Below are positions 22,381 through 40,698 of a stretch of 54,458 nt of DNA, piece after piece. The stretch comes from Prorocentrum cordatum. Its lineage: Eukaryota. Every line of letters starts with the position of its first letter. Positions within the stretch are counted from its first letter, which is position 1. The notes under the pieces were generated by a model. The model saw only the letters and a list, made by a program, of their open reading frames with translations. It was not told the origin of the DNA and did not search any database. The stretch covers positions 62,001 through 116,458 of the forward strand of contig CAUYUJ010000240.1 of assembly GCA_963575745.1 (NCBI GenBank). Reading direction: 5' to 3'. Made by a program: the position numbers and the translations under genes.

Positions 22381-22665
22381 AGTCGAAAACGCACTGGTAA
22401 GCCATGATATATGTTCCGCCTTAGGCGCTCCCATATCCCAGGCTTTGGCTCATATCGCATGAGCAAGAGAGCAAGACGAAGCATGGGATCTGGAGTAAAG
22501 GATAGAAGGGGCATCGTCAATGGAAAAGGTATTTTCCGATCTCAGATACAAGTAGTGCGCCTCAATGAGGCACAATCACATATTAGGCCGGGCCCGGCTT
22601 GAGCCAGGCACGGCAGCGGTGCATGCTCGATATACATCTCGCCTTTAACCCTCTCCGTTTAAAGT
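22381..22665 (-). repeat. 3' LTR
   Basis: Identical to 40414-40698 except T22405 versus A40438. Confidence 0.95.
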
Positions 22666-22769
22666 TGGAGGGGGAGGAGACGAGCAAGCACCGCACTTCT
22701 TCATTACGCGGAAAAACAGTGCTAGGCAACAGCGGCTGCCTACAAGGTAAGGGCGCGCGAGTAGCCTCG

Positions 22770-24650
22770 CTACCGGCGAGTTTCCTCGCTACTAGAGCGC
22801 ACCTGCATGCGGGTTTCCCCGCTAGCTCGGGAGGCAGGGCCGTCCTGAGACGACCTGCCCGCCCTATACGGAGTATGTTTCTTCAGCTCGTGCTTGAAGG
22901 ATTGCTGGCCGGCCATTACCTGTAGGAGCAACGCGCGGTCAATACTACCTTTGGTATGACCATCGGCAGTCATATCCCGCGTGTCACACCATTGGACGCT
23001 TTCAACGATTCCGCGCTCCATCATCTGGCGGATCCAGCTAATGTGCCCAAGCAGAGTGCATTCTGTGGGCTTCTTCAGATCTTTGCTAGACAAAGACTTG
23101 AAGACAGACTCGGCATCAATAGTCAGAGTGACTTTGATACATAGACCACCCATTTCCAATATGTTCTTTAACTGTGTGGGGGTCAATGGTCCCGAGTGTA
23201 GCTCGTGGAGCGTTACAATGGTCGGGTAGCAGTCTTCCAAGTTGTGGGCTGCTGCCAGTGTTTCCGCAGAGTAGCTCGAACGCACCTGCAGTCGATGAGA
23301 CTTGCAGTATGCGTCCACCAGGTGCACGACGGGTTTCCCCGCTTGCGTGTGGCCACGCCTCAGCAGGTTAGCCCCGCGGATACCGTAGCCTTTGACTTCG
23401 TCGTCTTCATCTCCGTTGAGACGACGATAGCCAGAATCGCTATGCAGGTCGACCTCTCCTGTTGGAGTCATAGCTTGATACACGATCTTCTTCGGACCTG
23501 CCTGCAATTTACTGGTAACCGCGTTTAGTCGTCGTACCTGGATGTTTGTCGGTTCCTGGATACGTTGTAGTGAGACGACATAGACCATCAGCCATACCTG
23601 CGTGATCAACGCATAGGCTAGAGCGCCACGAAGACTGACGAACATATCAGAAATCGTCTTTGTCGCTTTGCTCTCAGGATCAGCGCCTGTGAGTTCTGGA
23701 TGTGTGATAGGACGAAGCTGTTTGATGTATTCGTCCTGATCAAGAGTGACGCTCCCATCATCGGTCTTGTTGTACCGAACGGCACAGTTTGTGTATGTGT
23801 GCTTGTTCAGTTTGCACTTTCCAAACGTATCTTCAACACACTTGACATACTTGTCAATAGAATCTTCCTTCCCAGTCATATTGATGTCATCAACGTGTTT
23901 GGCTGTCAAGAGGTTTGAGCTCATCTCGAACTCTTCGTCGTATGAAGTAGGCTGTAGTCCAAAGCTCCTAGTGATGGACCTGAGCTTCAACGAGAATGCC
24001 CTGGGAGCATCCTTCGTGCCCGTCCCCGGCTTCAGACACCGAAGACAGTGCTTTGATTCGACGTATGACTCAAAGCCTGGCAGTGTGCGAAGGACAGCTG
24101 CTGATCCAGGAGGTAGTGTGAAGCACACCACACGCTCTTTCTCGCCCGTTGCCGCGGCGAGCTCGCTATAGGTCAGTCCCTTCAAGAAAGCCATGTTGAT
24201 GTCCAGGGAAGCGATGATCCAAGCTTTGTTGCACGCAGCAGAACTTGCGAGCAGTCTCTGGTTTGACCTCCTTGCCGTGCCAGAGAAGGTTTCGACATCG
24301 AAGGCTTCAATGTCCATGAAGCCACGGAGTACCAAGCGTAACCTGATCGTCCGTTCCATTTCGCCCTTCTCGTTCTTGACAAACTTCCATTTGTATACGT
24401 AGCGTGAAGTCATGATGTTCGACGCTTTGCTCAAGTCAGTCATCTGGAAGCATTTGTTGTCAAGCCACGTCTTCAATTCTGTGTAAAGGGCTTTGGAAAC
24501 TTTGACCGGATGCGCTTGAATGTCGGCCTTCGTGAGTAGATCGTCTTCCTTGACGACCACGGCACGTTTGGAGGCAGCGCTAACATATACTCGCATAGTT
24601 GTGACGCTGCTGTCATCCAACAATCGGCGTTGCTGCTCGGATAACGACTT
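22770..24650 (-). CDS. Copia-type reverse transcriptase + RNase H (3' segment of polyprotein)
   Basis: SRYVYKWK, RLVLRGFMD, LDINMAFLKG, KPGTGTKDAPRAF, HVDD; RNase H SDSGY, SSYSAET, IDAESV, MTADGHTKG. Confidence 0.93.
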   Translation of the reverse strand, partial: KSLSEQQRRLLDDSSVTTMRVYVSAASKRAVVVKEDDLLTKADIQAHPVKVSKALYTELKTWLDNKCFQMTDLSKASNIMTSRYVYKWKFVKNEKGEMERTIRLRLVLRGFMDIEAFDVETFSGTARRSNQRLLASSAACNKAWIIASLDINMAFLKGLTYSELAAATGEKERVVCFTLPPGSAAVLRTLPGFESYVESKHCLRCLKPGTGTKDAPRAFSLKLRSITRSFGLQPTSYDEEFEMSSNLLTAKHVDDINMTGKEDSIDKYVKCVEDTFGKCKLNKHTYTNCAVRYNKTDDGSVTLDQDEYIKQLRPITHPELTGADPESKATKTISDMFVSLRGALAYALITQVWLMVYVVSLQRIQEPTNIQVRRLNAVTSKLQAGPKKIVYQAMTPTGEVDLHSDSGYRRLNGDEDDEVKGYGIRGANLLRRGHTQAGKPVVHLVDAYCKSHRLQVRSSYSAETLAAAHNLEDCYPTIVTLHELHSGPLTPTQLKNILEMGGLCIKVTLTIDAESVFKSLSSKDLKKPTECTLLGHISWIRQMMERGIVESVQWCDTRDMTADGHTKGSIDRALLLQVMAGQQSFKHELKKHTPYRAGRSSQDGPASRASGETRMQVRSSSEETRR

Positions 24651-25986
24651 TGGACATGTCTGCTGTGAAGCAAAGCTCGATGTACTTCCCGTGCTCGTCG
24701 GAGTCCAGATCATATTGGCTGTCCGGAACCGTGGAGCACAAAGGAACGTAGTAAGCAGTGTCCATGTCGTATCCTGGCGGGTGACCCCGCACCGGCAAGT
24801 GGCCTTGCACATCTTCACAGGTCGTAGAGACCAACACGCACTGTGAGTCTGTCATGTATGTCGGAACTGTATGCATGACTTCTTCTGTGTCAGCTTCAAG
24901 GAGTGTTCTGTCATCCATCAGTTCAGCATACCACGACTTCAAGACAAAGGCATCCAGATCTTCTTCTGTTTCCTCTATGATGGTCGGGAGCCGACCATCA
25001 TTCTCCGCAGGAGGCTGCTCAGGAGCAGCTGCTGGAGGTGACTCGCTTGGTGGTGGGCCATCAGCGAGTGCCTCAAACTTAGTGAGGTCTCGGTCGAATC
25101 CAGCAGGCGGCTTCTTGGATTTAAGACACTGGATGATGCGTGAGTGTGTAGATCCTGTGATGTCGTAGATGTTCAAGGCAGCGCCATCAGCTTCATAATA
25201 ATGAAAGCCAGGGGTCACATCATTATCATAGTGCACTAGTGTACAGCTGTCTGCATAAGGTGCAGCAGGCAACTTCGTCAGGCTCTTAGCAAGTCGTACA
25301 GCAACAACGTTTTCAATGCGAAAATAGTTGCGAATGAGATACTGAAGAGCCAAGTGCACCTTAGGCGAAAGCCGGCTCGCAGCAGTCATCTGCAGCCGGC
25401 CCTGTTTCGCTGGTAGATATCCGAAAGTCATGGCGGGTTTCCCCGCTGGCAGACCGGCAATAAAGGCCAATACTGTCCGAAGGGCCGTATTGTCCGATCC
25501 TATCTCGCGGACCATCAGTGCTTCGATGTACAGCGTATGTCGTGTGTCAGGATACTGTACTCGCACTTCGCGACTGCCGACCTTCACGATGACCTGACCT
25601 CGGTCAGGTTCGTTGCGGATGACCGGGTATGGACCACTCCATCCACCCCAGTCGTCTTTCGTGGTGGTCGGGCGATGATAGTCCACGAGATCTCCCTCTT
25701 TGTAGTGAAATTCACCCGTAGCAGTAGTCTTCGTACGGAGAGCCCTGTTCGTCTTGGCAACCGCAGTGGCCTGCGTGATTGCCTCCAGACTAACCCTCCT
25801 GATTGTTTCCTCCCTTGAGTGATCTGATGATTCAGCGGACTGATCATGATCCAAGACAGGGAAATCGGGAAGCATAGCTGGTTGTCTGCCATACAGCGCA
25901 TTATACGGAGAAACTTCGTTGTAGAAGGTAAATGCGTTGCTGGCAAACAAGGCTTCATGTAAAAGACGAATGAAATTCATAGGAAT
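24650..25986 (-). CDS. Integrase C-terminal region and linker (polyprotein segment)
   Basis: ASNAF...SPYNALYGRQP and GDLVDYHR...WSGPYPV are typical post-core integrase motifs; joins the upstream core in frame once the insertion is removed. Confidence 0.8.
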
Positions 25987-27925
25987 CCGCCGACCCTGTC
26001 GGCGTGTGTGAGGGGCTTGTCCGTTCGAGCCGTCATCTCCGTCATTCTTTGTACTCGTCGTCTCTGTCCTTCCCTTTCCCTGGGAGACCTCTTCCCCTGG
26101 GCCCCAGCCAAGCCGACCTTGAGCAACCTCGTAATTGAGTCGAAGGGAAGCCCCTTCCCTTTGATCCCTCCCCCGCCGGGAGGGGGGGGGGTGCAGCGAC
26201 CCCCCCCCCCCCGGGTCAGATACGACGCCCCCCCCTGGGACTCCTTTTCCCCTGGGCTCCAGCCAAGCCGACCTTGAGCAACCCCTGGGCTCCAGCCAAG
26301 CCGACCTTGAGCAACCTCGTAAGTGAGTCGAAGGGAAGCCCCTTCCCTTTGATCCCTCCCCCGCCGGGAGGGGGGGGGGGGGTGTCGACCCCCCCCCCGG
26401 GTCAGATGCGACGCCCCCCCCTGGGACTCCTCTTCCCCTGGGCTCCAGCCAAGCCGACCTTGAGCAACCTCGTAATTGAGTCGAAGGGAAGCCCCTTCCC
26501 TTTGATCCCTCCCCCGCCGGGAGGGGGGGGGGGGTGTCGACCCCCCCCCCGGGTCAGATACGACGCCCCCCCCTGGGACTCCTCTTCCCCTGGGCTCCAG
26601 CCAAGCCGACCTTGAGCAAATTGAGTCCTCGTAATTGAGTCGGGCTCCAAGGGAAGCCCCTTTCCCTTTGATCCCTCCCCCGCCGGGAGGGGGGGGGGGT
26701 AGCGACCCCCCCCCGGGTCAGATACGACGCCCCCCCCTGGGACTCCTCTTCCCCTGGGCTCCAGCCAAGCCGACCTTGAGCAACCTCGTAATTGAGTCGA
26801 AGGGAAGCCCCTTCCCTTTGATCCCTCCCCCGCCGGGAGGGGGGGGGGGGTGCGACCCCCCCCCCGGGTCAGATACGACGCCCCCCCCTGGGACTCCTCT
26901 TCCCCTGGGCTCCAGCCAAGCCGACCTTGAGCAACCTCGTAATTGAGTCGAAGGGAAGCCCCTTCCCTTTGATCCCTCCCCCGCCGGGAGGGGGGGGGGT
27001 GTCGACCCCCCCCCCGGGTCAGATACGACGCCCCCCCTGGGAAGCCAAGCCGACCTTGAGCGAATTGTCGAAGCCGGAAGCCCCCTTCCCTTTGATCCCT
27101 CCCCCGCCGGGAGGGGGGGGGGGGTGTCGACCCCCCCCCCGGGTCAGATACGACGCCCCCCCCTGGGACTCCTCTTCCCCTGGGCTCCAGCCAAGCCGAC
27201 CTTGAGCAACCTCGTAATTGAGTCGAAGGGAAGCCCCTTCCCTTTGATCCCTCCCCCGCCGGGAGGGGGGGGGGGGTAGTCGACCCCCCCCCCGGGTCAG
27301 ATACGACGCCCCCCCCTGGGACTCCTCTTCCCCTGGGCTCCAGCCAAGCCGACCTTGAGCAACCTCGTAATTGAGTCGAAGAGGAAGGGAAGCCCCTTCC
27401 CTTTGATCCCTCCCCCGCCGGGAGGGGGGGGGGGTGCGACCCCCCCCCCGGGTCAGATACGACGCCCCCCCCTGGGACTCCTCTTCCCCTGGGCTCCAGC
27501 CAAGCCGACCTTGAGCAACCTCGTAATTGAGTCGAAGGGAAGCCCCTTCCCTTTGATCCCTCCCCCGCCGGGAGGGGGGGGGGGTGTCGACCCCCCCCCC
27601 GGGTCAGATACGACGCCCCCCCCTGGGGGGCTCCAGCCAAGCCGACCTTGAGCAACTCGTAATTGAGTCGAAGGGAAGCCCTGGGCTCCAGCCAAGCCGA
27701 CCTTGAGCAACCTCGTAATTGAGTCGAAGGGAAGCCCCTTCCCTTTGATCCCTCCCCCGCCGGGAGGGGGGGGGGTAGCGACCCCCCCCCCGGGTCAGAT
27801 ACGACGCCCCCCCTTGGGACTCCTCTTCCCCTGGGCTCCAGCCAAGCCGACCTCGAGCAACCTCGTAATCTCTTGCTGCGCATTGCGAACAGGGTCGGCG
27901 GCACCGGCCGTCAGGCCTTCGCAAT
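25987..27925 (+). mobile_element. 1,939-bp non-coding insertion with asymmetric inverted repeats and an internal tandem array
   Basis: CCGCCGACCCTGT (25987-25999) inverted with ACAGGGTCGGCGG (27889-27901), then a 21-nt tail plus AAT; AAT at both junctions; removal restores ...RLNIPMNF. Confidence 0.85.
26090..27870. repeat. ~150-bp tandem repeat, about 12 units including partial ones
   Basis: Unit GGGCTCCAGCCAAGCCGACCTTGAGCAACCTCGTAATTGAGTCGAAGGGAAG...G-run...C-run...GTCAGATACGACG. Confidence 0.95.
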
Positions 27926-28470
27926 ATTCAACCTATTCAATTCTTCTCCCATCACGTGTATGAGGTGTCGCAGGATACCATTCCTAGCTTCGACAGTCGT
28001 GGCGTGTTGGCCACGCGCTCGGATACGAAGCTCTGTTCCCTTGGATTTAAGGATGGCCTTTGCTGTATCGTTATTCAGTGCTCCTTCCCCATCGGAGTAT
28101 AAGATCTTAGCAGGGCCATGTTGCATCCAAGTTGTGCGATAGGCATCGAGAACAGTATGCATAGTCTTATCAGGAATCTCTGTGCCAGCTGCCCAGCGAA
28201 TACAACGGTCGATGATGTGAAAAACAATATGTTCCTGTTTGTAAAAGAAAAGATCACATTCGACTTCCTCGTTGAAACGTCCTGGCAGTGACACAGAAGG
28301 CATCACCGTGTTGCCTGGTTTGTCCCAGGCACGACATTCTCTACACGAGTCGCAAATGCCTTTGATCAGACTCAAACGGGTTTCACCCAGACCAACCTTA
28401 GTTAGAATCATCCGCATTTTTGGTTCCTTGGCATGAAACCATCTCAAGTGGAGCTTGCGGAGTTCTCGCT
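27926..28470 (-). CDS. Integrase HHCC Zn domain and DDE core
   Basis: LHLRWFH...CDSC; ECDLFF, IIDRCIR, YSDGEG, VEARNGILR. Confidence 0.9.
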
Positions 28471-29249
28471 GCACTACAGCTGGGTCAAAGCTGCGCAGGT
28501 TTTGAAGGCTGAGCTGAACGTCGAAGCGAGTCCAATCAGGAAGCCTTGGCCTTGGCCTCGGCTCTGCTTGAGGCTGCGGCGGCGGTGGAGGATCTCCTCC
28601 CTCCATGCGTCCGCGCCTTGCTGCAACTTGTGGCAGTCTGCGGTGATCGTCAGAGCTACCAGCGCCAGTGGTGTTACCATGAGCCCCTTCGGCCCTGGTG
28701 ATGTCATGGCTGCTGGCGCCTGCGGTTGGATCTCCCTCACCGGGCCGTGGCGGCCTAGGCGCGCGTATGCGCGCTTTCGCGGCCGGCGCCGCTTTTGCGG
28801 CTGGCGCCGCTTTTGCGGCTGGAGCCGCTTCCGCGGCTGGCGCCGCAGGAGCGGCTTGCCCCGCTGGGCGCGGCTGACCAAAGTTATCTGGCAGCTTCCA
28901 TTTTTCGGCGAATCTACATTGGCCAGATATCTTGGTATGGTGAGGATTGCTCCTCTGATATTCCTTCTTACAGCTTGGACAGTCCCAATAGTATGGTTCA
29001 ACATCATACCATCGACACATCTTCGGATCCCTGCTGGGTCTTGGTGATTGTTTGTAGTTGTTGTCTACACAGCCAGGACGCCCAAGACCGCCAGGTGGTG
29101 GTCGCCGGATTTCTCCGTTTGGGTGTCTCTGGATTGTTGGGTCGTCCAAGTCGTAGCCAGCACTGTTTGTTACGAACGCGTAACTGCGTTCGCGATTCGC
29201 GAATGGATCGCGACCGTAGGCAAACAGATCTTTGGCGATTTGCACCGCA

Positions 29250-29870
29250 TCAACGATCAATGACTGCATTCTGTAGGTATACTGCGCCGCCCTTGCTTGT
29301 TCTTTGTTGCAAGCATTGGCGTGCACATGATTACCTGGACAACGCTTGCCTCTAAAAGGTGCCAACAACTCTTCTTTGTTTCCCATCATCTGTGTTGGCT
29401 TGCGAATGTATTGTCCAAACGAATCTTTGAGACCCGTCGTGCATTGATCCATAATCGTTTGGCAAGTGACCTTGCGTTGTGCCAGTTCCTTCCACGGCTG
29501 GATCTCGTCCACCCACGTGCCCATTGGTAGTTCCCTGAGAAAGAAACGTCTTAGGTCGTCTTGTAATAGAGCGACTGTTCCGCAGAACGTGATATGAGGC
29601 AGGTCCTCTTTGTGGTGTTTAAGCCACGTATCATGATTGACCTGTGCATTGAAGTAGGAAGGAAGTCCAGTAGTTCTGCAGCTTGGCTGCAAAATCGTGA
29701 TCTTGGCAAAGCAAGTCTTGAGGTAGTGAAGGACTGCCCTTTGTACTTCCGAGTTTCCGAGGTCAACCATAGATATCTTATCAAGGTTCCCGCCCGACGA
29801 GAGTCCCCTCTTGAAGGCTAATATGGATATACCACCCTTGCCCCCACATAATTCAAGCATGTCCACTTGA
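29250..29870 (-). CDS. C5 cytosine methyltransferase-like domain
   Basis: Motif I-like ELCGGKGG, IV-like QPSC, VI-like LRELP, VIII-like DQCTTG...RKPT, then C..H.H and X-like AAQYT. Confidence 0.7.
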
Positions 29871-33189: not shown

Positions 33190-33350
33190 CACGGCATACG
33201 GCACAGGGGGCCTCATTCGGCGCACCTGGCCGCTGATTGCGGACGTGCTGCTGTGCAACACGGTCCCAGCATATGTCGTGAAAGAAGTGCCCGCACGCCA
33301 GTCTCCACACTGTAGTGCCCATCTCGTAGTTGTCCATGCAGATTGGGCAC
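33190..33350 (-). CDS. RING-H2 zinc finger
   Basis: CPIC-x14-CGH-x2-H-x2-C-W-x20-CAVC. Confidence 0.85.
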
Positions 33351-34989
33351 TGAGCGAAGTTGTAGTCTGAAAATTTCTGGAGCAGGCGCGTCAGGGCGAG
33401 TCCGAGCTTGGCGCTCGAAAGTGGTTTCGCCCTCCCGATATGGCGTCGGTGGCGGCCGTCTGTCTGGCCGTTCAGCGGGTGGCCCCGCTTCTGCGGGTGT
33501 CCCCGCTTGGGCCTCGCGCTCAATCCTTCTCTGGATCGCGCGTTGTTGGCGCAGCCTGGTGTTGTCACGAGCCTGCTGCCTGGATGCCAGTATCGCTTGC
33601 TGCGTGTTGTGCACGTCGCGGATGCAGTCTGGCACGCTGCCCATAGCGGCTGGCACCGCGAGACCAGCTGGCTGTACTATGGTCTCGGGGTCCGTCGGCG
33701 TGGGCATGTAGGCGTAGTGCGGCATAGACTGCGCATCGACCGCTCGTGTAAACTGCAAACGAAACATCTCATTAGCTAGGTTCCGAGTGTATTCGTTCGC
33801 AGGTGGCCCCGCAATCATAGGAGTGTTATTCATCTGCGCGTAGTACTCCGGGTACATCGGCGCGTCCATGGCCTGCGCCTCTGCTGGACCGTGATTGTCC
33901 CATCCATATATCGGGTGTGATGCTATTCCTGGAATAAACACCTGTCGATATGGATTCGTGGGATCAGCATTTGGAGCATCTTCAGAAGTCCAACTCCAGA
34001 GAGGTCGAAAGTCGCCATGATTCGTAACATCTATGTTGCGGTTCCGCAACAGGCTGGGCACTCTATCAGCTTGTTGCTGCAGAAAAGTAGCCTGTGCTCT
34101 TAAGTTGGCTGCCCGACGTTCGTAGTCTGAACCTTGCTGTCCGTCAGCGGGTGGCCCCGCTTGAGCGGGTGGCTCCGCAGGCGTTCGCTCGGCGGGTGAC
34201 CCCGCAGCCACTCCTCCTTCACTACCCCTCGGAGTGCCAAAGGGAGTGGTTGCTTGGAGTGCTGCCGCGAGTGCTGGATTTCCGCGAATCGCCTGGAGTC
34301 TTTGCCACAAGCTGTTCTCGCTCGTTTCAGACGGCGGAGTCCGGAACGGCGAGCCACCATCTGGAGCCGCCCATAGGGACAAACCTCGCACCTCCAGCCT
34401 GCTGCGGAGGGCGTTGTGGCTGTGGTCCTAGGGCGCCTGGTGGCCCCGCAGGAGTGCGCAGGTTCCTCTGCTGTGCGTCTTGGATACCTGTATGCACTGC
34501 CCACGGGCCAGCACGATATAGCTGATCGGTCAGTCCAGAAACGTCGGCTGGTGACAGGTAGCTGTTGAGGGCCTGGACCCACGTCTGCTGGTCCGGCCTC
34601 CAAGGAGATGCTACCGCGGCTACTGGTGCGACCACTTGCTGCCATGAACCATCCGAGGTGTCTGCCGCGGGTGTCCCCGCACCTGCGGGTGGCCCCGCCT
34701 CAGGCATGACCTCGTCTTCCTGGGCATTTATCATGAGGACTGTCTGTGTGAGGTACGGTCGTGGAGCAACATCTTGCTCGGTCATGATCAGGTTGAATGG
34801 GCGACCGCCCGTCTTAGTCCAGCCCTTTAGGTACATGGCGTGATCTTCCATCACACCCAGAGTTCTGTCACATAATTTAAGTGGCAGGTAATCCTCGGTG
34901 CGAATCCTGTCTGCGGGTTGGCCCCGCCTCCGCGATTTGTCATAAGCCAGCGGATTGCTCCAGGCTTCACCGACCCGATATTTTGCAAT

Positions 34990-35740
34990 GCTCACAATCT
35001 GGAGGATATGATCGGGCGGTATGCGGCCGTCGTGGCCCCGTGTCATGACGATGTCATTCGCTGACCTCCATAGAGAAAAGCCGCTGGACAACATCTTGCT
35101 GATGCTGCAGAAGATGAGCACCTCAGAGTCAGGACGGATGCCCGACTGAATCCTCGGGCACCCGGGAGGTAGGGGCAGCCGTGTACGAACTGGCGCCCCC
35201 CCTGCCCCTTAGGGTTGTCCTGTGCGAGGCATGAAAGGCCATTATCAAGGATGCCCTTGACATGTTCCCACTGTGTCCCGTGGATGAAGTATACTGGGTC
35301 ATCTGGTTCCTTCATCCATGTTGTGATCGGCTTATAGAGCGACTCGGGGCAGTGGATGCCTGGGCTGCTATGGCCGTTCGTGGCTCTGATGAAGTATTGT
35401 GGCCTGCGTGCCGTTGGTCGGAATCTGGGAGGTAGCTTCACGCTATCCTCGACGCACTTCATCTGGAGCCTGCCCTTCTGCATGCCATGGTTGTCGATCA
35501 TCTCGCAGCAGTTTAGCAACACCCAATACACGTATGAACAGTGAGGGTTGCCTTTGATCAGCACATCGTGCATGTCCCGGTAGCCTTTCCACTGATCGTT
35601 TTCAGTCCAGTTTGTCAGCAAATCGTCAACAACAACCCAGCCATCGTATGGATCGAAAGTGTTAATCTTTTCGAAGTGTCGGCTGAATCCATCTTTCCAA
35701 TACGGACTATGGCGTAGGGCTGTAGAGAACCATATTGACA
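34990..35740 (-). CDS. Tpt1/KptA RNA:NAD+ 2'-phosphotransferase domain (1-nt frameshift at ~35158)
   Basis: STALRH, DGWV.VDDLL, KGRLQ, IRATNGHS, IHGT...ILDNGLS, GRQFVH, LPG/PRIQSGIRPDSEVLI, RSANDIVMTRG.DGRIPP, all in Tpt1 order. Confidence 0.88.
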
Positions 35741-36047
35741 CCTTGGTCATTTGCCAATCGCGCGGCAGAGTCGGATCAGTGTAAAACTTCTCCATGACCT
35801 TCATGAGCTCTGCCCTGTGCTGCGCGACGCGCAATGGCGGCCTGTCCCGCAACATATTTCCCACGGCTTGTTGTTCACGTTCCCAATCGTTACGGCACTC
35901 GAAGTTACGGCGATCAGGGCAGTTAATGACCTCGTATCGATCTGCATCATCTCGAGTGACTCGTGGGTTTATGGTGCGTCTCGGGCCATTGCCTTCAATG
36001 CCTTGCCAATATTCAATGGCTCCCAGAGGGATGTTCGTGAGAACAGA

Positions 36048-39000
36048 CTACGCTGGTTGCCGACGCGCGGGCGGCCCCGCTGCTGCAGCTGGCGCCGCTT
36101 TAGCGGGTGGCCCCGCAGAGCCTGCGGCTGCCGAGGCAGCTCCAGCGGATGACCCCGCGCCAGGGTGCGGGTGACCTTGGTCAGCCACCGCATCGTCGGC
36201 TAGTTTCTGTCGGTCGCCAAATTCTTTGAGGGCTCTGAAGCGTTCTTCTCTTGAGAGAGCGCCTTCTGCGGGCGTCCCCGCTGCTGCAGCTGGCGCCGCT
36301 TTAGCGGGTGGCCCCGCAGAGCCCTTGTCCTCCTTAGCTTTGGCGGCTGCCTCTGCCCGCACCGACCTCATCCCAGCCTCGGGCTTCGGCTGTGCATTCA
36401 TTCGTGCCGAGCCTGGTCGTGGTGCAAGGCGCGGCTGATGCAGAGTTGGAGTCCAGTCACCTCGGAAGGCTGCCTTAGGCTGGTCGCGAACTTCGTCCTT
36501 GACATCGCCTTGGGCAGCCGGTGGCATCGGGGTTGATGGTCCAGCGAAAGCCTTCCTCCTCTCCGTCACGGACGGGCCGGTAGGCTCTCCCTGCTCAGGG
36601 TCGTCCTTCTTGGCGATCCATCTGGCCTTCGCACGCCCCCGCGTGCCTTCGGGGCTCTTGGAAGGGTACCTCTTCGCAGGAGACGGTGGAGACGAGGAGT
36701 CGGCTTCAGGTCCTGGAGGCGGTCTGCTGCCCTTGCCTGGTTGTGGACCAGGAGGGTCTTTAGGAGGGCCTTCTGGCTGGCCATGATCATGGATGATCTG
36801 CCTCATCTGGTCGATGTCGGCAGCACCTTTTATGGCCAGCTTGTACTTGCCATTTTCGTGGCGATGAATTACCCTCGTGCAAAACCACTTCTGTGCCGAG
36901 GAGCTGTAGTACCAGCAGGCGCATCCATCAGGGAATGGATTCACTGAGCCGTCTTCCGCCGCCCATTCTTCATTCAGTTCGGTTTGGTCAGTACCGGCGG
37001 CGGATCCGGCAGCAGATGCAACAGCTATCCACTCTTCGTCCGCGGACCCAGCGGCTGGCGCCGCGTCTGCGGGTGACCCCGCTTCTCCGCTGGATTCTGC
37101 GGGCGACCCCGCCTCTTTATGGAATCGGCGGTTCCACTCCTTGAGGCGATGGTCATTGGGAAGCTGTTCCCAATTTTCCCTGACAGTGTTAGCAACCTCC
37201 TCGGTCATAGGGACGCGATCGGCTTCAGTGATGCGCTTTCCTCCTCCAGGGACCTTCTTGTTAGGATCATGGACGTTGCCGGCGTCATCTCCATGAGACC
37301 AATTCCAGGGGGTCTCACCGTAATGAGGGCTCCTGGAGGGGCGGTCCATTGGACAGCTGCGCACGTGACCTTTGAAGGGCTCGCATTGACATACTTGTTT
37401 CCTGTATGTCTTGCGATCGTTGATGATCTCCTGTTTCTTAGCCCTTTTGTCCCAAGCCTCTGGCGTTTTAGTCTTGCCACCCTTGGTGCGTATTATCATG
37501 CCAGATTCGTCCCGTTTGGTGCAGTACTCCTTAGAATACCAATGGCGGATCACGCCCATCGAGTAGCCAGGGTACCAATTGATGTACCACTCCGGCACGT
37601 ACTGAGCGGATGCACCTACGGAGTGCTCCGTACTGTATGGGTAGCCAGACGCATCATGTGTAGGGCGTCGTGGAGCTGAACGGCTCCTCCTGCGGGCTGG
37701 CCCCGCTGACGCACTGCCACGTTCCATGGGCCTTTCATCTTCATGACGGTGCTCTGGGTCTCGGGGTGGCGATGGTCGTCTGTTCTTCTTGGCATGGCGC
37801 CTGTCCTCCGAGTCCTCTGAGCTGTCCTGGACCATGAATACGTGCTGATGCGGGCTTCGAAAGTACCCGATGTCGGTTAGCTGCTCCATCGTGAGGTCGT
37901 TGAGGTCCATCTGGTCGCAGCCCTGCATGAATACGTCCATAGACCAAGCGGGTGGCCCCGCTGCTGCGGCTGGCGCCACTTCGGCGGGTGACCCCGCTAG
38001 AACCTGGAGTGCTGTCAGCATCTGAGGTGCCGACATGTCCGAATCCAGGTATGGACGCAGCCTTGCGGCCCCTGGGCGCGACAGCAGGTCGTTCATGGTT
38101 ATCTGCTGATGTGCTGGCGCACTCAGGAGCTGGATCGCTTCTGCGACCTGCTCTTGGAGCATGTCCTTATGGTCCTCTTCGGCCTCTTCAGAGTCAGAAT
38201 AAGCGGGATGGCCCCGCATTTCGTCATCAGCGTCTCCCGCTTCCGAGCCAGCTCGCGGAAGATCTGGCAGCAACGGCATGCCAATCACCTGCGGTGCCAG
38301 CGCGGCGGCGAGCTCCTCCTCGGTCGCCGGGACGGTCTCAGCTTCGGAGATCTCGTCGTCGGCGGGTGGCCCCGCTGGAAGACCGAACCAGGCATTGAAC
38401 GCGACCTCGTCGACTTCGTCCCAGCCGTGGAACTCGTCGAAGAGGGTCACCGCGTACTCTTCCAGGGCTACGGTCACATCAGCGTAGCGGGCCATCACGT
38501 AGTACGTGGAGGAGCCCGCGGCGGCAGCCGCTTCTGGATTGACGTAAAACTCGTAGTCAATGTAGTCTATGTCATCCATAAAAGAGTTTTGAGCCAAATG
38601 TACGGATCCCTTTCCTTTCCCTTTCGGGCAATGATCGCGCAAATGCTCTGTACCACCGCATGTATGACACTTCATAGTATTGCCAGAAGCGCCCCTAGGG
38701 TTGCCCCTCCGCCCTTTTCCCTTACCAGAGGTCCGCCTGTGACCCCGACCTTTGCCTCCGATAAGAACTTCTTCAAAAACTATATCAGTTAAGGGCGTGA
38801 GGAAAGCAGTAATACCCCTACCATGTATACGACGTCTGCGACCCCCTTTGCCACGACCCTTTCCATATCGTTTGAAATGTCGGCGCGCTGCGCGTCTCAC
38901 TTTTCTGACTGGTTTCTTCATAAAGCGCCTCCAACGGCGCTTTGATTTGCGATAAGCCATAAAAGCGGCTTCCGCTCTTTGTTGTTCAGAAAGGTGAGTG

Positions 39001-40547
39001 TCATCAGCTGGATAGTCATTACCAGCAGAGACTATTCCATTGTGCTCATCGTCAGATGAGGTATCTGTGTCAGTGCCAGACTCAAACGGAGAGGGTGGCT
39101 GAGACCCTTGAGCGGATGACTCCGCTTGGCCCCAGAGGGTTGTGCCCGAGGGCGGGCTTGCAGTGTAGGCGGCGCCTGGCGTGTAGTTCGACCAGGCGTT
39201 CGCCTCAGCTGCCTCTGCCGATGCCTGGCCGGTCTGCCCTAAGAAGGCAGTGGCCTCGTTGGGCATATCGGCTGGATCAGCCCAGGGACTTGGCTCGCCA
39301 GGACCAGCGGGTGACCCCGCAGTCGTGGCGTAGACACCTGCATGTGCGTGGTGCCCTGTGAAGATACCCGCAATGTTGCCAGGAGAGCGCTCGGCAACAT
39401 GCCCGTAGTTCCTCATCCTGGTCAGCAGCCTGTCATAGTCTGCTTGTGTTCTGGGCATCTGATGATTAAAGGGCTCCAGCAGGTGTTGGGCTCGTGACGC
39501 GCCAACGTCTAACGCTCTGAAAAGGATCAGCGTTAGGATCTGAAAGTTGGGGATGACAAAGCCAACAGAGTTAGCCTCGTCACGGGCCATCTCGAATCGA
39601 GCTAACGCTGAGTCGATTCGCTCGCCCCTTTCGACGCGAAAGTCGATAAGGGCAGTGCCAGAGTTGAGCTGGCGCTCATCTTCCAGAATTTCAAATTTGG
39701 TGCTCAATAGGTACAGTATATAAGTAACTGCATCCGTTGGCTGTCCGTTGACAGTTACACCATAGTTGATGATCTGGGAGGGGACCTGCATGGCGATACG
39801 ACGAGCAAGGCCTTGAAGGCCACGTTGTAGTGCTGCAGCTTGCTGAGGTGGCGTCATATTGCCGCTCGTTACGTTTATCCATGCATGTACTTCGCGAACG
39901 TACTCGCGAAAGGGCGTAGTACCGGCTGGGTCCCACGAAGGGCCGGTAGTACGCGTGTCGTCCATCCCCTGCCGCATGTAGCCCACAGCACATCCCATTA
40001 TCACCCATAGAATGCCGAAGATAGTTATCTTAATCCAGTGCATGTGCATCTCGGCTTCGGTGATTGGTTTAGGCTGTGGTTTGTCAGGCTCGGGCGTAGT
40101 AGCCGTAAGGCGCCTGACCGGCATGGGATGCAGGTGGCCCCGCTGCGGGTAGCCCCGCAGAGTGACCACGTTCTCGATCGAGTTGCCGATTGGCATCTGG
40201 TGGAAGTCGGGAGTGAAGTAGCGCAGTGAAGTAGGAGAGAGCGTCTCGAGCTCGCGGGTCGCCCCGCTAGCTCGATCGCGGACTGGCTCCGCTCCTCGCA
40301 GAGCCGGCGCAACATGGTATTCCACCGTAGTAGTAGTCCACCAAGTTGTGCCGTGGATTACAGGAATCAGAGCGAGAGCCAGCCACACGAGAGTGTAGCC
40401 AGCTCCGCTACCAAGTCGAAAACGCACTGGTAAGCCAAGATATATGTTCCGCCTTAGGCGCTCCCATATCCCAGGCTTTGGCTCATATCGCATGAGCAAG
40501 AGAGCAAGACGAAGCATGGGATCTGGAGTAAAGGATAGAAGGGGCAT
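36048..40547 (-). CDS. Gag-containing N-terminal polyprotein segment
   Basis: PSWD...FREYVREV..W Gag motif (~39880-39945); KG-rich stretch then CHTCGGTEHLRDHC knuckle (38628-38669); long low-complexity extension. Confidence 0.85.
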   Translation of the reverse strand: MPLLSFTPDPMLRLALLLMRYEPKPGIWERLRRNIYLGLPVRFRLGSGAGYTLVWLALALIPVIHGTTWWTTTTVEYHVAPALRGAEPVRDRASGATRELETLSPTSLRYFTPDFHQMPIGNSIENVVTLRGYPQRGHLHPMPVRRLTATTPEPDKPQPKPITEAEMHMHWIKITIFGILWVIMGCAVGYMRQGMDDTRTTGPSWDPAGTTPFREYVREVHAWINVTSGNMTPPQQAAALQRGLQGLARRIAMQVPSQIINYGVTVNGQPTDAVTYILYLLSTKFEILEDERQLNSGTALIDFRVERGERIDSALARFEMARDEANSVGFVIPNFQILTLILFRALDVGASRAQHLLEPFNHQMPRTQADYDRLLTRMRNYGHVAERSPGNIAGIFTGHHAHAGVYATTAGSPAGPGEPSPWADPADMPNEATAFLGQTGQASAEAAEANAWSNYTPGAAYTASPPSGTTLWGQAESSAQGSQPPSPFESGTDTDTSSDDEHNGIVSAGNDYPADDTHLSEQQRAEAAFMAYRKSKRRWRRFMKKPVRKVRRAARRHFKRYGKGRGKGGRRRRIHGRGITAFLTPLTDIVFEEVLIGGKGRGHRRTSGKGKGRRGNPRGASGNTMKCHTCGGTEHLRDHCPKGKGKGSVHLAQNSFMDDIDYIDYEFYVNPEAAAAAGSSTYYVMARYADVTVALEEYAVTLFDEFHGWDEVDEVAFNAWFGLPAGPPADDEISEAETVPATEEELAAALAPQVIGMPLLPDLPRAGSEAGDADDEMRGHPAYSDSEEAEEDHKDMLQEQVAEAIQLLSAPAHQQITMNDLLSRPGAARLRPYLDSDMSAPQMLTALQVLAGSPAEVAPAAAAGPPAWSMDVFMQGCDQMDLNDLTMEQLTDIGYFRSPHQHVFMVQDSSEDSEDRRHAKKNRRPSPPRDPEHRHEDERPMERGSASAGPARRRSRSAPRRPTHDASGYPYSTEHSVGASAQYVPEWYINWYPGYSMGVIRHWYSKEYCTKRDESGMIIRTKGGKTKTPEAWDKRAKKQEIINDRKTYRKQVCQCEPFKGHVRSCPMDRPSRSPHYGETPWNWSHGDDAGNVHDPNKKVPGGGKRITEADRVPMTEEVANTVRENWEQLPNDHRLKEWNRRFHKEAGSPAESSGEAGSPADAAPAAGSADEEWIAVASAAGSAAGTDQTELNEEWAAEDGSVNPFPDGCACWYYSSSAQKWFCTRVIHRHENGKYKLAIKGAADIDQMRQIIHDHGQPEGPPKDPPGPQPGKGSRPPPGPEADSSSPPSPAKRYPSKSPEGTRGRAKARWIAKKDDPEQGEPTGPSVTERRKAFAGPSTPMPPAAQGDVKDEVRDQPKAAFRGDWTPTLHQPRLAPRPGSARMNAQPKPEAGMRSVRAEAAAKAKEDKGSAGPPAKAAPAAAAGTPAEGALSREERFRALKEFGDRQKLADDAVADQGHPHPGAGSSAGAASAAAGSAGPPAKAAPAAAAGPPARRQPA
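40401..40413 (-). promoter_or_regulatory. Primer-binding site, probably for initiator tRNA-Met
   Basis: TGGTAGCGGAGCT directly abuts the 5' LTR; resembles TGGTAGCAGAG/TGGTATCAGAG iMet-type PBSs. Confidence 0.8.
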
Positions 40548-40698
40548 CGTCAATGGAAAAGGTATTTTCCGATCTCAGATACAAGTAGTGCGCCTCAATG
40601 AGGCACAATCACATATTAGGCCGGGCCCGGCTTGAGCCAGGCACGGCAGCGGTGCATGCTCGATATACATCTCGCCTTTAACCCTCTCCGTTTAAAGT
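40414..40698 (-). repeat. 5' LTR
   Basis: 285-bp direct repeat of 22381-22665. Confidence 0.95.

What the first reader, a model, noticed from the sequence alone, without database searches (positions are those of the whole stretch)
22381..40698. Giant multi-cargo Copia element with a ~5,300-aa single polyprotein
Seen: after removing the 1,939-bp insertion, nearly the whole ~16.4-kb element is one minus-strand coding tract (40547 to 22770) ordered Gag-ZnK / SH3-like / Tpt1 / RING-H2 / PR / degenerate MTase / MTase / IN / RT / RH. Established: typical Copia polyproteins are ~1,300-1,800 aa, and DNMT-carrying retrotransposons are already reported in dinoflagellates. Inference: combining RNA repair/ADP-ribosylation, ubiquitin ligase and DNA methylation modules suggests a virus-like accessory toolkit and possibly an undescribed lineage.
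Basis: partly seen in the sequence, partly recalled or inferred. Interest (0 to 1): 0.85.

Follow-up and report, generated by a model that had tools for sequence, protein, structure and literature searches.

The report
Giant cargo-carrying Copia retrotransposon, broken copy
This is a young but broken copy of a very abundant, unusually large Copia-type jumping gene of a Prorocentrum-like dinoflagellate, whose family encodes a roughly 5,300-residue protein with an RNA 2'-phosphotransferase, a RING finger and two DNA-methylase-like domains beside the usual retrotransposon enzymes.

Summary
The element is real. Two 286-bp LTRs (285 of 286 identical) with a CACC target duplication flank an 18.3-kb minus-strand Ty1/Copia-type retrotransposon. 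Pfam confirms Tpt1, RING-H2 and a Copia RT. PR, IN and RH rest on motifs and relatives. Both "MTase" calls are supported by fold only: predicted structures match C5 cytosine methyltransferases in four searches, but no Pfam profile matches. The 1,939-bp insertion is confirmed, and contigs from other runs show the empty site.

This copy is not one open frame. It has six frame changes, one in-frame TAG and the insertion. At four of the six shift sites, most contigs from three other runs carry the indel that rejoins the frames. A marine-metagenome sister element has Gag–Tpt1–RING–PR in one open 2,653-codon frame, and another relative spans Gag to RT in at least 3,301 residues. The cargo therefore belongs to the family and is not nested insertions.

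The methylase-like domain has 956 cluster representatives and usually sits upstream of IN and RT. I found no published description. Functions are inferred.

Verdict: a new variant of a known kind. Interest 0.65.

The parts
40414..40699 (-). 5' LTR (286 bp). The long frame and its first ATG (40547) already start inside it.
   Evidence: Direct repeat found. It is 285 of 286 identical to the 3' LTR.
40399..40413 (-). Primer-binding-site-like TGGTAGCGGAGCTGG, directly inside the 5' LTR.
   Evidence: Read from the sequence. L004 also starts this position with TGGTA. No tRNA gene lies in the window to compare it with.
36051..40547 (-). Piece A. It holds two hydrophobic helices, the Gag core (about 39369-39941), a CX2CX4HX4C zinc knuckle (38628-38669), a Tudor/SH3-like lead (36747-37013), and low-complexity linkers with AG(P/S/T)PA motifs.
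   Evidence: ORF. The Gag core is 36% identical to P0024 residues 136-324 and 49% identical to L004. The knuckle scores only E = 0.56 in Pfam. The Tudor lead is, the hydrophobic segment and the motif counts.
36048..36050 (-). In-frame TAG between pieces A and B.
   Evidence: It aligns with a Gln in the open frame of L004, within a weakly aligned stretch.
34984..35750 (-). Tpt1/KptA RNA 2'-phosphotransferase domain, split by a 1-base loss near 35158. The motifs STALRH, FIRATNGHS and GRQFVHG are present.
   Evidence: Pfam PF01885 scores 35.9 bits in piece B and 22.5 bits in piece C. Both pieces align to TRPT1 7yw3 across the same LPGDP motif. An extra base at 35158 is present in all the depth of X2, X3 and X4.
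33188..33352 (-). RING-H2 finger.
   Evidence: Pfam zf-C3HC4_2 scores 32.1 bits and zf-RING_2 31.6 bits, both above their cutoffs. A RING at the same relative place occurs in L004, L005, L006, P0024 and P0133.
31898..32371 (-). Protease-like region with the motifs LDIGS and LPAIWG.
   Evidence: There is no Pfam hit. D-x-G-S and LPAI-x-G are invariant in 4 of 4 aligned relatives. P0024 and P0133 are colinear here.
30591..31217 (-). First DNMT-fold domain. It is degenerate: no glycine loop, no catalytic Cys and no Glu at the expected places.
29201..29911 (-). Second DNMT-fold domain. ELCGGKG follows strand 1, QPSC follows strand 4 and RELP lies on strand 5.
28916..29038 (-). Cys/His zinc-ribbon-like segment between the DNMT-fold domain and IN.
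   Evidence: CxxC pairs are conserved in alignment A1. The only database support is a weak DUF4379 treble-clef hit at E = 0.04.
27923..28537 (-). Integrase, first part: an HHCC finger (HLRWFH, CDSC) and the core D, D and E residues.
   Evidence: Motif positions are. It is colinear with 26 of 29 long relatives. Six of the 20 relatives scanned hit Pfam rve at the matching place. The window itself has no rve hit.
25984..27922 (.). The 1,939-bp insertion inside IN. It is about 12 units of a ~150-bp G-run/C-run satellite, flanked by ATT, with a 13-nt inverted repeat near both ends.
   Evidence: Joints skipping it were found in X1 (2 contigs) and X2 (2 contigs, in frame). L001, L005, L006 and L010 have an uninterrupted IN.
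25132..25983 (-). Integrase, second part.
   Evidence: Piece H residues 1-290 follow piece G residues 591-796 directly in P0024 and other relatives.
23676..24458 (-). Copia-type reverse transcriptase (HVDD box at 23883-23897).
   Evidence: Pfam RVT_2 at 43.7 bits, cutoff 31.6.
22872..23444 (-). RNase H-like region (motifs HSDSGY, YSAETL, IDAESV, DMTADGHTKG). The polyprotein stop is at 22770-22772.
   Evidence: Motifs by eye. There is no Pfam hit. The region is conserved at 60-85% identity in 20 or more metagenome loci.
22667..22684 (-). Tract next to the 3' LTR where a polypurine tract is expected. On the sense strand it is pyrimidine-rich (CTCGTCTCCTCCCCCTCC).
   Evidence: A similar CGTCTCCTCCCTCCCC sits at the same place in L004.
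22381..22666 (-). 3' LTR.

Best explanation
This is a recently inserted, now defective copy of a very high-copy Ty1/Copia-type LTR retrotransposon family. The host is a Prorocentrum-like dinoflagellate.

Shown:
- The element has the Copia layout: LTR, tRNA-type primer site, Gag with a zinc knuckle, PR, IN, RT, RH, LTR.
- It carries extra modules in the same reading direction. A Tpt1 RNA 2'-phosphotransferase and a RING-H2 finger lie between Gag and PR. Two tandem domains with the fold of C5 cytosine methyltransferases, plus a zinc ribbon, lie between PR and IN.
- In relatives these modules sit in one continuous frame.

Inferred:
- The intact family member is transcribed from the 5' LTR and translated as one polyprotein of about 5,300 residues.
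- The element's protease cuts this polyprotein, probably at the recurring AG(P/S/T)PA-rich linkers that separate the modules in its first 3,300 residues.
- The first DNMT-fold domain has lost the glycine loop, the Cys and the Glu. The second keeps a CGGKG loop, a P-x-C and a Glu that are nearly invariant across the family. The pair would then work like DNMT3L with DNMT3A, an inactive partner beside an active enzyme, and would mark the element's own new DNA or RNA.
- Tpt1 would use NAD+ to remove a 2'-phosphate from the element's nucleic acid, or to cap its 5'-phosphate ends with ADP-ribose.
- The RING would recruit host ubiquitin-conjugating enzymes.

This particular copy cannot make the polyprotein. 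It has six frame changes, a TAG and a 1,939-bp satellite insertion in IN. Since its LTRs still differ by only one base, it was most likely copied from an already damaged RNA, using proteins supplied by intact relatives.
For: Structure of the element:
- LTRs and target duplication.
- Pfam RVT_2, Tpt1 and RING.

Relatives with continuous frames:
- L004 has one open frame of 2,653 codons. It covers pieces A, B, C, D and E, all in frame 1, with Tpt1 at 61.8 bits and a RING.
- L006 has RING and PR, then one TAG, then 2,049 open codons running from the first DNMT-fold domain to RH, all in the same frame.
- P0024 is a 3,301-residue protein from Gag to RT.
- L001 has an uninterrupted IN.
- Of 29 relatives of 900 residues or more, 26 have the DNMT-fold domain followed by IN, and 10 also have RT.

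Other copies of this family:
- All 30 bins are covered in 4 of 4 runs.
- Indels of the right sign and size sit at 35158, 34363, 30227-30242 and 24643. They are carried by all or most of the depth in X2 (and X3/X4 where covered), except at 30227-30242, where X3 shows only the +3 change.
- Joints skip the insertion.

Fold of the two middle domains.

Other points:
- The AG[PST]PA motif occurs 22 times in the sense frames of A, C, D and E, against 1-4 per frame in the 36 kb outside the element.
- The host lead is 4 hits, all named Prorocentrum cordatum, at 75-91% identity.
- The R-H-R-R tetrad and the 5'-phosphate capping activity of Tpt1 are from passages of PMC12678800.
Against: - The window's own PR, IN, RH and both DNMT-fold domains have no Pfam hit. 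No member of alignment A1 hits DNA_methylase (0 of 33), and a profile search of the PDB finds nothing.
- The motif IV equivalent is P-x-C, not the adjacent P-C.
- The D/E frame change near 33371 is repaired only in a minority of X2 (180 of 808 depth) and in none of X1, X3 or X4. No repairing indel was listed for E/F or for the TAG (that table was cut, with 19 indel rows and 862 substitution rows not shown).
- In X1, the best holder, the window's broken alleles are the majority at 35158 and 34363.
- Within this species, all evidence apart from this one copy comes from short contigs of a multi-copy family.
- The LTR ends are not TG...CA, and the expected polypurine tract is pyrimidine-rich on the sense strand.
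- Tpt1 was seen only in the window family and in L004, not in P0024, L005 or L006.
- There are no expression data.
Confidence: 0.82

Rival explanations
1. The two middle domains only share a Rossmann-like fold with DNA methylases. They are not methyltransferases and serve another role, for example a different nucleotide-dependent enzyme, a nucleic-acid binder or a structural spacer of the polyprotein.
For: - There are no Pfam DNA_methylase hits in the window pieces, in 20 long relatives or in 33 alignment members.
- phmmer and a profile search against the PDB find no MTase.
- The motif is P-x-C rather than P-C. The QxRxR motif and a target-recognition domain of normal size are not visible.
Against: - Two aligners and three libraries put C5 cytosine MTases first for both domains.
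- The conserved residues fall where motifs I, IV and VI sit on strands 1, 4 and 5.
- Small viral cytosine MTases of about 210-250 residues give the best TM-scores, 0.47-0.62.
Confidence: 0.3
2. The family is built as two long reading frames rather than one. Frame 1 would run from Gag to the segment after Tpt1, and frame 2 from RING to RH. The two would be joined by a programmed +1 ribosomal frameshift near 33371 (TTC AGA C), as in Ty1 and Ty3.
For: - The D-to-E change is a +1 shift.
- It is the only shift for which the window's allele is the majority in all four runs. The one-base-shorter T-run is seen only in X2, at 180 of 808 depth.
- It lies just upstream of the RING, and both frames look like real protein up to that point.
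- That Ty1 uses +1 frameshifting is recalled knowledge.
Against: - L004 and L005 have D and E in one frame with no shift.
- AGA makes up 10% of the element's Arg codons, so it is not a rare 'hungry' codon.
- No slippery heptamer fits.
- The indel table was cut, so a nearby compensating indel could be hidden.
Confidence: 0.12
3. The frame breaks are assembly errors (for example homopolymer miscounts), and the copy in the genome is an intact, autonomous element interrupted only by the satellite.
For: - Several breaks sit at or next to short base runs: a C3 run at 35158, a T4 run at 33371, a G5 run at 31311-31315 and a C5 run at 30277-30281.
- The LTRs are nearly identical.
- The satellite is full of G and C runs of variable length.
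Against: - Contigs of run X1 carry the window's alleles at these sites, as the majority at 35158 and 34363. However, X1 may be the sample the window came from.
- The breaks at 34363 and 24643 are not at long homopolymers.
- The TAG is a substitution, not an indel.
Confidence: 0.1
4. The cargo domains are host gene fragments or separate elements nested into this one copy, and are not part of the retrotransposon family.
For: - Tpt1 and RING are ordinary cellular domains.
- Predicted P. cordatum proteins that match piece B are chimeric gene models.
Against: - L004, P0024, L005 and L006 carry the same modules, in the same order and frame, at 25-50% identity.
- All bins are covered in four runs.
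- No internal LTRs or extra target duplications were found apart from the satellite.
Confidence: 0.03

Closest known systems
Ty1/Copia (Pseudoviridae) LTR retrotransposons, including the ~10-kb SmTCL elements of Symbiodinium microadriaticum (PMC5776459, passages read)
   Same: It has LTRs with a short target duplication, a TGGTA-type primer site and an RVT_2 reverse transcriptase. IN lies upstream of RT and RH. The Gag frame starts inside the 5' LTR, as I recall for Ty1.
   Different: It carries the extra modules Tpt1, RING, two DNMT-fold domains and a zinc ribbon. The LTR ends are not TG...CA. The tract next to the 3' LTR is pyrimidine-rich on the sense strand.
DNMT-carrying retrotransposons: SymbioLINE-Dnmt and SymbioDIRS-Dnmt3 of Symbiodinium, and DNMT3 in Copia of charophytes (de Mendoza et al. 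2018, PMC5890265, sections 6 and 7 read; PMC12344493, passages)
   Same: A cytosine-methylase-type domain sits inside a retrotransposon coding region in a dinoflagellate.
   Different: Those DNMTs are found with Pfam PF00145 and sit in LINE or DIRS elements in dinoflagellates. That paper states that Symbiodinium Copia 'lacks any DNMT domain'. Here the host element is Copia-type. The domain is too diverged for Pfam, comes as a degenerate-plus-conserved tandem pair, and lies between PR and IN.
DNMT3A-DNMT3L pair of mammals
   Different: Here both domains are in one polypeptide of a mobile element. Sequence identity is about 10-13%.
Tpt1/KptA/TRPT1 NAD+-dependent RNA 2'-phosphotransferases
   Same: Pfam PF01885 scores above its cutoff (35.9 bits in the window, 61.8 bits in L004). 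The sequence aligns to TRPT1 structures. Motifs that fit the Arg-His-Arg-Arg tetrad are present (the tetrad is from PMC12678800).
   Different: The domain is embedded in a retrotransposon polyprotein, has an enlarged N-terminal lobe, and is split by a frameshift in this copy. One search listing (top 15 of 1,472) showed no paper on Tpt1 in retrotransposons.
Environmental relatives P0024 (3,301 aa) and locus L004 (marine metagenome contig)
   Same: They share the module order and frame. P0024 has Gag, zinc knuckle, RING, PR, the DNMT-fold pair, IN and RT. L004 has Gag, Tpt1, RING and PR. L004's RT end is 85% identical to the window's.
   Different: Identity is 25-50% outside RT. P0024 has no Tpt1 hit and carries another unassigned segment between PR and the DNMT-fold pair. 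Their hosts are unknown.

Membership tests
Ty1/Copia LTR retrotransposon | Two long terminal direct repeats with a short target-site duplication | tested here: met
   The 286-bp LTRs are 285 of 286 identical. CACC (or TCACC) lies on both sides.
Ty1/Copia LTR retrotransposon | Reverse transcriptase of the Copia type (Pfam RVT_2) | tested here: met
   PF07727 scores 43.7 bits against a cutoff of 31.6, E = 3.3e-11.
Ty1/Copia LTR retrotransposon | Integrase encoded upstream of RT (order PR-IN-RT-RH) | tested here: met
   HHCC and D, D, E motifs at 27977-28450 lie upstream of RT. Relatives are colinear, and 6 of the 20 scanned hit Pfam rve at that place. The window's own IN has no rve hit.
Ty1/Copia LTR retrotransposon | Primer binding site complementary to a tRNA 3' end next to the 5' LTR | tested here: inconclusive
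   TGGTAGCGGAGCTGG lies directly after the LTR. No host tRNA was available for comparison, and there is no tRNA gene in the window.
Ty1/Copia LTR retrotransposon | Polypurine tract on the sense strand next to the 3' LTR; TG...CA LTR ends | tested here: not met
   The sense strand reads CTCGTCTCCTCCCCCTCC before the 3' LTR. The LTR reads AACT...GACT. These are usual but not universal features.
C5 cytosine methyltransferase (Pfam DNA_methylase PF00145) | Match to the family's sequence profile | tested here: not met
   There is no hit in pieces F or G even at E <= 10, in 0 of 20 long relatives and in 0 of 33 members of A1. The PDB profile search was empty.
C5 cytosine methyltransferase (Pfam DNA_methylase PF00145) | Fold of the catalytic domain | tested here: met
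C5 cytosine methyltransferase (Pfam DNA_methylase PF00145) | Motif I glycine loop, motif IV Pro-Cys nucleophile, motif VI Glu-Asn-Val (motif names recalled) | tested here: inconclusive
   The second domain has CGGKG after strand 1, QPSC after strand 4 (P169 and C171 nearly invariant, but P-x-C rather than P-C) and RELP on strand 5 (E220 nearly invariant). The first domain has none of the three. The placement is by secondary structure, not by a residue-level superposition.
C5 cytosine methyltransferase (Pfam DNA_methylase PF00145) | S-adenosylmethionine-dependent methyl transfer | not testable with these tools
   This needs a biochemical assay.
Tpt1/KptA RNA 2'-phosphotransferase (PF01885) | Match to the family profile above the curated cutoff | tested here: met
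   Piece B scores 35.9 bits against a cutoff of 26. Piece C scores 22.5 bits for the C-terminal part. L004 scores 61.8 bits over profile positions 5-177 of 177.
Tpt1/KptA RNA 2'-phosphotransferase (PF01885) | Arg-His-Arg-Arg catalytic tetrad (PMC12678800) | tested here: inconclusive
   STALRH, FIRATNGHS and GRQFVHG are present in the window and conserved in L004. The second and third align to TRPT1. The N-lobe Arg-His is assigned by eye only.
Tpt1/KptA RNA 2'-phosphotransferase (PF01885) | Uninterrupted coding sequence | tested here: not met
   In this copy a 1-base loss near 35158 splits the domain. Other copies and L004 are continuous.
RING-H2 zinc finger | Profile match and the C3H2C3 pattern | tested here: met
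   Three RING models score above their cutoffs. CPIC...CGHFFHDIC...CAVC was read from the sequence.

The most novel reading that the evidence does not exclude
A large, so far unrecognised clade of Copia-type elements in marine protists carries a built-in methylase pair of the DNMT3L/DNMT3A kind, one inactive and one active domain. Standard profiles miss it. The pair would methylate the element's own newly made DNA, or its RNA.

In the Prorocentrum lineage the clade has also taken up a Tpt1 enzyme. This would cap the element's 5'-phosphate ends with ADP-ribose, or remove 2'-phosphates from its nucleic acid. A RING ligase is present as well.

All of these are released from one polyprotein of about 5,300 residues, cut at AG(P/S/T)PA linkers. 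If so, this would be the longest and most module-rich Copia polyprotein known, and a retroelement that edits its own epigenetic and end-chemistry state.
Probability: 0.2. Interest if true: 0.85.

Novelty: new variant of a known kind. Interest (0 to 1): 0.65.

Why it matters
Dinoflagellate genomes are huge, heavily methylated and full of Copia elements. The published survey of methylase-carrying retrotransposons reported that Copia elements in Symbiodinium have no DNMT domain (PMC5890265). That survey searched with the Pfam profile, which also misses the domain described here.

If the fold-level assignment is right, a widespread methylase-like module has been overlooked. It has 956 cluster representatives and usually sits next to Copia IN and RT. 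It may bear on how these genomes reach near-complete CG methylation and on how Copia elements escape or exploit silencing.

A Tpt1 enzyme and a RING ligase inside a retrotransposon polyprotein would add two new classes of accessory domain. The size, about three times a normal Copia polyprotein, stretches what an LTR retrotransposon can package. The AG(P/S/T)PA linkers give a concrete, testable guess for the protease's cleavage sites.

Tried and rejected
Searches and tools that gave nothing:
- No whole genome is held for the window, so I could not build a consensus of genomic copies.
- The word-index protein search found nothing for piece G or for the DNMT-fold core with 'longer' lengths. For piece B with 'longer' it found only 4 P. 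cordatum gene models, which are chimeras of element pieces.
- phmmer of pieces F and G, and a profile of A1, against the PDB found no methylase.
- The protein atlas gave no usable hit for A 960-1300 and only sub-threshold Tudor/Agenet leads for A 1195-1275. A PDB phmmer search of that stretch found nothing.
- The metagenome scan with piece B found no locus. The scan with piece I gave 23 loci.
- Cluster look-up returned no organism names for 10 relatives.
- Sequencing runs: no RNA holder was listed, so I can say nothing about expression.
- Earlier findings of this scan returned nothing in 3 look-ups.
- No tRNA gene lies in the window to test the primer site against.

Ideas I dropped:
- A rare-codon ('hungry' AGA) basis for a +1 frameshift. 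AGA is 10% of Arg codons.
- CpG depletion as a sign of self-methylation. Observed/expected is 0.76-0.95 across modules and 0.82-0.94 in the flanks, with no clear contrast.
- TAG as a conserved read-through signal. In-frame stops in relatives are mostly TAG, but they sit at different places.
- I did not use depth to rank parts, because the tool warns that contig depth cannot do that.

Literature. Four full-text searches, plus passages or sections of 8 papers, gave no description of a Copia element with Tpt1, RING or tandem DNMT-like domains. I did not open any supplementary files; those of de Mendoza et al. 2018 could list Copia annotations that bear on this.

Full report
**What is at the coordinates**

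A direct repeat of 286 bp lies at 22381-22666 and 40414-40699. The repeat tool printed 100% identity, but a base-by-base comparison shows one difference (22405 T, 40438 A), so identity is 285 of 286. CACC lies immediately outside both repeats.

On the minus strand the inner edge of the upstream repeat is followed by TGGTAGCGGAGCTGG, a tRNA-3'-end type primer site. All long frames between the repeats are on the minus strand. This is an LTR retrotransposon of 18,319 bp in minus orientation.

**The coding tract in this copy**

Read from stop to stop with the standard code, the tract falls into nine pieces:

| Piece | Coordinates | Frame class |
|---|---|---|
| A | 36048-40574 | 2 |
| B | 35043-36047 | 2 |
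| C | 34327-35208 | 0 |
| D | 33213-34427 | 2 |
| E | 31115-33676 | 1 |
| F | 30219-31316 | 2 |
| G | 27911-30307 | 1 |
| H | 24613 to about 25983 | 0 |
| I | 22770-24851 | 2 |

Pieces A and B are separated only by an in-frame TAG at 36048-36050. There are therefore six frame changes, one in-frame stop and one insertion.

**The insertion**

A block of a roughly 150-bp satellite, rich in G and C runs, fills 26090-27870.
- Contigs from two public runs join across it. In X1 the joint is 25979 to 27923 (2 contigs). In X2 it is 25983 to 27927 (2 contigs) with four letters between.
- The X2 form reads ...LNIPMNF... in frame.
It is flanked by ATT on both sides.
- A 13-nt inverted repeat sits near its two ends.
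- Relatives L001, L005, L006 and L010 have an uninterrupted integrase at this point.

**Domains found by sequence profiles**

Pfam hit 4 of the 9 pieces at E <= 0.01:
- Tpt1/KptA in piece B: 35.9 bits against a cutoff of 26.
- Tpt1/KptA in piece C: 22.5 bits, covering the C-terminal end of the profile.
- RING fingers in piece E: three models above their cutoffs.
- RVT_2, the Copia-type RT, in piece I: 43.7 bits.

At E <= 10 the only addition is a zinc knuckle at E = 0.56, lying on a clear CX2CX4HX4C pattern. Pfam finds nothing for PR, IN, RH or any methylase.

The integrase is recognisable by its HHCC and D, D, E motifs. It is also colinear with relatives, and 6 of the 20 relatives scanned hit Pfam rve at that place. 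The protease call rests on a D-x-G-S motif and an LPAI-x-G motif that are invariant in 4 of 4 aligned relatives. RNase H is assigned by motifs only.

**The Tpt1 domain and its frameshift**

Pieces B and C both align to mammalian TRPT1 structures across the same LPGDPG segment. The break is therefore a one-base loss inside the domain, near 35158.

Contigs of X2, X3 and X4 all carry one more base there (1636.5 of 1636.5, 119.6 of 119.6 and 95.6 of 95.6 depth). That gives LPGD-P, as in TRPT1. In X1 only 63.5 of 604.7 depth does.

The motifs STALRH, FIRATNGHS and GRQFVHG fit the Arg-His-Arg-Arg tetrad described for Tpt1 (PMC12678800, passages). The first of the three is assigned by eye.

**The two "MTase" domains**

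A HMMER search of 1.84 billion cluster representatives with residues 1-480 of piece G found 956 proteins at E <= 1e-3, and 64 at E <= 1e-30.

Second domain (within piece G):
- An alignment of 33 sequences shows nearly invariant D143, L144, P169, C171, E220, P222 and K264, and invariant C203 and C250.
- The AlphaFold model built on that alignment has pLDDT 77.8, with a core (94-330) mostly above 90.
- In Foldseek against the PDB, 37 of the 42 listed rows are C5 cytosine methyltransferases. The best is S. pombe Dnmt2 at E = 6.1e-4, and only one hit reaches E <= 1e-3.
- The viral library gives small cytosine methylases, best at E = 4.3e-7 with TMt 0.62. Tetraselmis virus 1 scores E = 6.4e-5.

First domain (within piece F):
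- The model has pLDDT 86.6 and pTM 0.83.
- Foldseek gives 29 hits at E <= 1e-3. The 46 rows printed are DNMT2, DNMT3A/B, DNMT3L or EhMeth except one release-factor glutamine methyltransferase (4dzr, rank 46, E 1.7e-3).

Laid on the predicted strands, the second domain has CGGKG after strand 1, QPSC after strand 4 and RELP on strand 5. These are the places of motifs I, IV and VI (motif names recalled). The first domain has none of them.

Against membership in the family:
- No Pfam DNA_methylase hit appears in the window, in 20 long relatives or in 33 alignment members.
- The profile search against the PDB is empty.
- The margin over generic Rossmann folds is about 1-1.7 Z.

I therefore call these domains "DNMT-fold", not members of PF00145.

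**Is the cargo part of the family?**

1. All 30 bins of the element are covered by contigs at least 90% alike in 4 of 4 runs from four studies. Twenty of the 24 listed runs, from 14 studies and many of them marine metagenomes, hold part of it.
2. Among relatives of 900 residues or more, 26 of 29 have the DNMT-fold domain followed by IN, and 10 also have RT. P0024 is a single 3,301-residue protein with the Gag core, zinc knuckle, RING, PR region, both DNMT-fold domains, IN and the start of RT.
3. A scan of metagenome contigs with piece I gave 23 loci.
   - L004 holds the end of an RT/RH frame (85% identical to piece I), then an LTR-like stretch, then one open frame at 820-8778. That frame is 2,653 codons, runs off the contig, and matches A, B, C, D and E in order, all in frame 1.
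   - Pfam finds a full Tpt1 (61.8 bits) and a RING in that frame.
   - L006 has RING and PR, a single TAG, then 2,049 open codons from the first DNMT-fold domain to the end of RH, in the same frame.
   - L005 has D, RING, PR, both DNMT-fold domains, IN and RT in one frame, with four in-frame stops.

The cargo is therefore old and in frame with Gag and Pol in relatives. RING and the DNMT-fold pair are shared widely. Tpt1 was seen only in the window's family and in L004.

**Are the breaks private to this copy?**

Contigs of other runs differ from the window by indels of the right sign at four of the six shift sites:

| Site | Change | Joins | X2 | X3 | X4 | X1 |
|---|---|---|---|---|---|---|
| 35158 | +1 | B to C | all | all | all | 63.5 of 604.7 |
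| 34363 | -1 | C to D | 746.7 of 746.7 | 144 of 160.7 | 68.4 of 68.4 | 387.3 of 1454 |
| 30227, 30229, 30242 | +1, +1, +3 | F to G | most | only the +3 | both +1 changes, not the +3 | part |
| 24643 | +2 | H to I | all | all | all | 39.5 of 84.9 |

- For D to E, a one-base-shorter T-run at 33371 would join the frames just before the RING. It appears only in X2 (179.8 of 808.1) and in none of X1, X3 or X4.
- For E to F, the break sits at a G5 run directly after an F-frame TGA. No repairing indel was listed.
- Nothing was listed for the TAG either. In L004 it aligns with a Gln, though in a weakly aligned stretch.
- The tables were cut (19 indel rows and 862 substitution rows not shown), so these three sites remain open.
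- The window's alleles are present, and often the majority, in X1. That argues against pure assembly error, with the caveat that X1 may be the source sample.

**Host**

The only named relatives are four predicted proteins of Prorocentrum cordatum, at 75-91% identity to piece B. They are chimeric gene models that include pieces of the element. The window's G+C content of about 60% fits what I recall for that genome.

**How it most likely works**

Shown: the Copia layout, the modules and their order, their conservation in one frame in relatives, and the damage to this copy.

Inferred:
- Transcription runs from the 5' LTR.
- Translation starts inside the LTR, as I recall for Ty1.
- A single polyprotein is cut by the element's protease.

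The motif AG(P/S/T)PA occurs 22 times in the sense frames of A, C, D and E and never in F to I, against 1-4 per frame in the 36 kb outside the element. Its DNA form occurs 18 times on one strand only, all inside the element. The motifs fall between the recognisable modules, so they are good candidates for linkers or cleavage sites.

The degenerate-plus-conserved DNMT-fold pair suggests a DNMT3L/DNMT3A-like arrangement. Their contact could not be tested. Tpt1 enzymes remove 2'-phosphates and can cap 5'-phosphate ends of RNA or DNA with ADP-ribose (PMC12678800, passages). Either activity could act on the element's own nucleic acid, but that is speculation.

Because the LTRs differ by one base while the body carries eight lesions, this copy was probably reverse-transcribed from an already broken template, with proteins supplied in trans.

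**Comparison with what is known**

- De Mendoza et al. 2018 (sections 6 and 7 read) report DNMTs in LINE and DIRS elements of Symbiodinium. They state that the abundant Copia elements lack any DNMT domain. Their search used Pfam PF00145, which also fails here.
- A later paper (PMC12344493, passages) notes DNMT3 in Copia and DIRS elements of streptophytes and dinoflagellates, citing the same work.
- Chen et al. (PMC5776459, passages) describe ~10-kb Copia elements in S. microadriaticum and annotate only IN, RT and RH.
- A review of accessory domains (PMC6338049, passages) has no occurrence of the terms 'RING' or 'ADP-ribos', and the listing counts no 'Tpt1' in it.
- A dinoflagellate genomics review (PMC11453091, passages) and an Amphidinium preprint (passages) mention Copia only as a repeat class.

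In these papers, and in four full-text searches, I found no description of this architecture. I did not open any supplementary files.

**Verdict**

This is a new variant of a known kind: a Copia-type retrotransposon with an unusually large, multi-module polyprotein and a cryptic, widespread DNMT-fold pair. Functions remain to be tested.

Noticed in passing
window 31548-39307 (18 sites) and pieces A, C, D, E: The peptide motif AG(P/S/T)PA recurs 22 times between modules of the first ~3,300 residues and never in the Pol half. It is encoded by a 14-nt DNA motif (GCGGGKGRCYCCGC) found 18 times on one strand only, all within 24777-39307, inside the element. These could be protease sites or linkers, or possibly a recombination motif that helped cargo capture.
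   Followed up: partly
window 22667-22684; L004 about 700-725: Where a polypurine tract is expected next to the 3' LTR, the sense strand is pyrimidine-rich. A similar tract sits at the same place in the sister element L004. The LTR ends are AACT...GACT, not TG...CA.
   Followed up: partly
window 25984-27922: The inserted block is a ~150-bp satellite whose units contain G10-13/C10-13 palindromes. A 13-nt inverted repeat (25987-25999 and 27889-27901) lies near its ends, and ATT lies on both sides. It may be a foldback or MITE-like mobile satellite.
   Followed up: partly
window about 39980-40037 and 40360-40420; P0024 residues 24-42 and 103-121: Two strongly hydrophobic helices precede the Gag core both in the window and in the distant relative P0024. 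This suggests a membrane-anchored Gag.
   Followed up: no
L005 3590, 4412, 7322; L006 1545; L010 247, 2458; L016 214; window 36048: In-frame stops that interrupt otherwise long frames in this family are mostly TAG (8 TAG; L005 has one TGA at 4448 and L001 one at 4072), but they lie at different places. This could be chance from C-to-T changes of CAG, or a host that reads TAG. I did not resolve it.
   Followed up: partly
P0024 residues about 1200-1400: Between PR and the DNMT-fold pair, this relative has a further segment of about 200 residues with no counterpart in the window and no Pfam hit. By eye it has an H-x-D ... H pattern reminiscent of 2-oxoglutarate/Fe(II) oxygenases.
   Followed up: no
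L004 1-1000: The end of one element's RT/RH frame, a single LTR-like stretch and the start of the next Gag frame follow each other directly. This is either two elements sharing one LTR or an assembly path through a repeat.
   Followed up: no
window 31406-31471: Contigs in all four runs skip 66 bases here, an in-frame length difference of 22 codons in the segment after PR.
   Followed up: no
window 20489-20863: A two-copy direct repeat of about 236 bp lies just outside the element (families D7 and D8).
   Followed up: no
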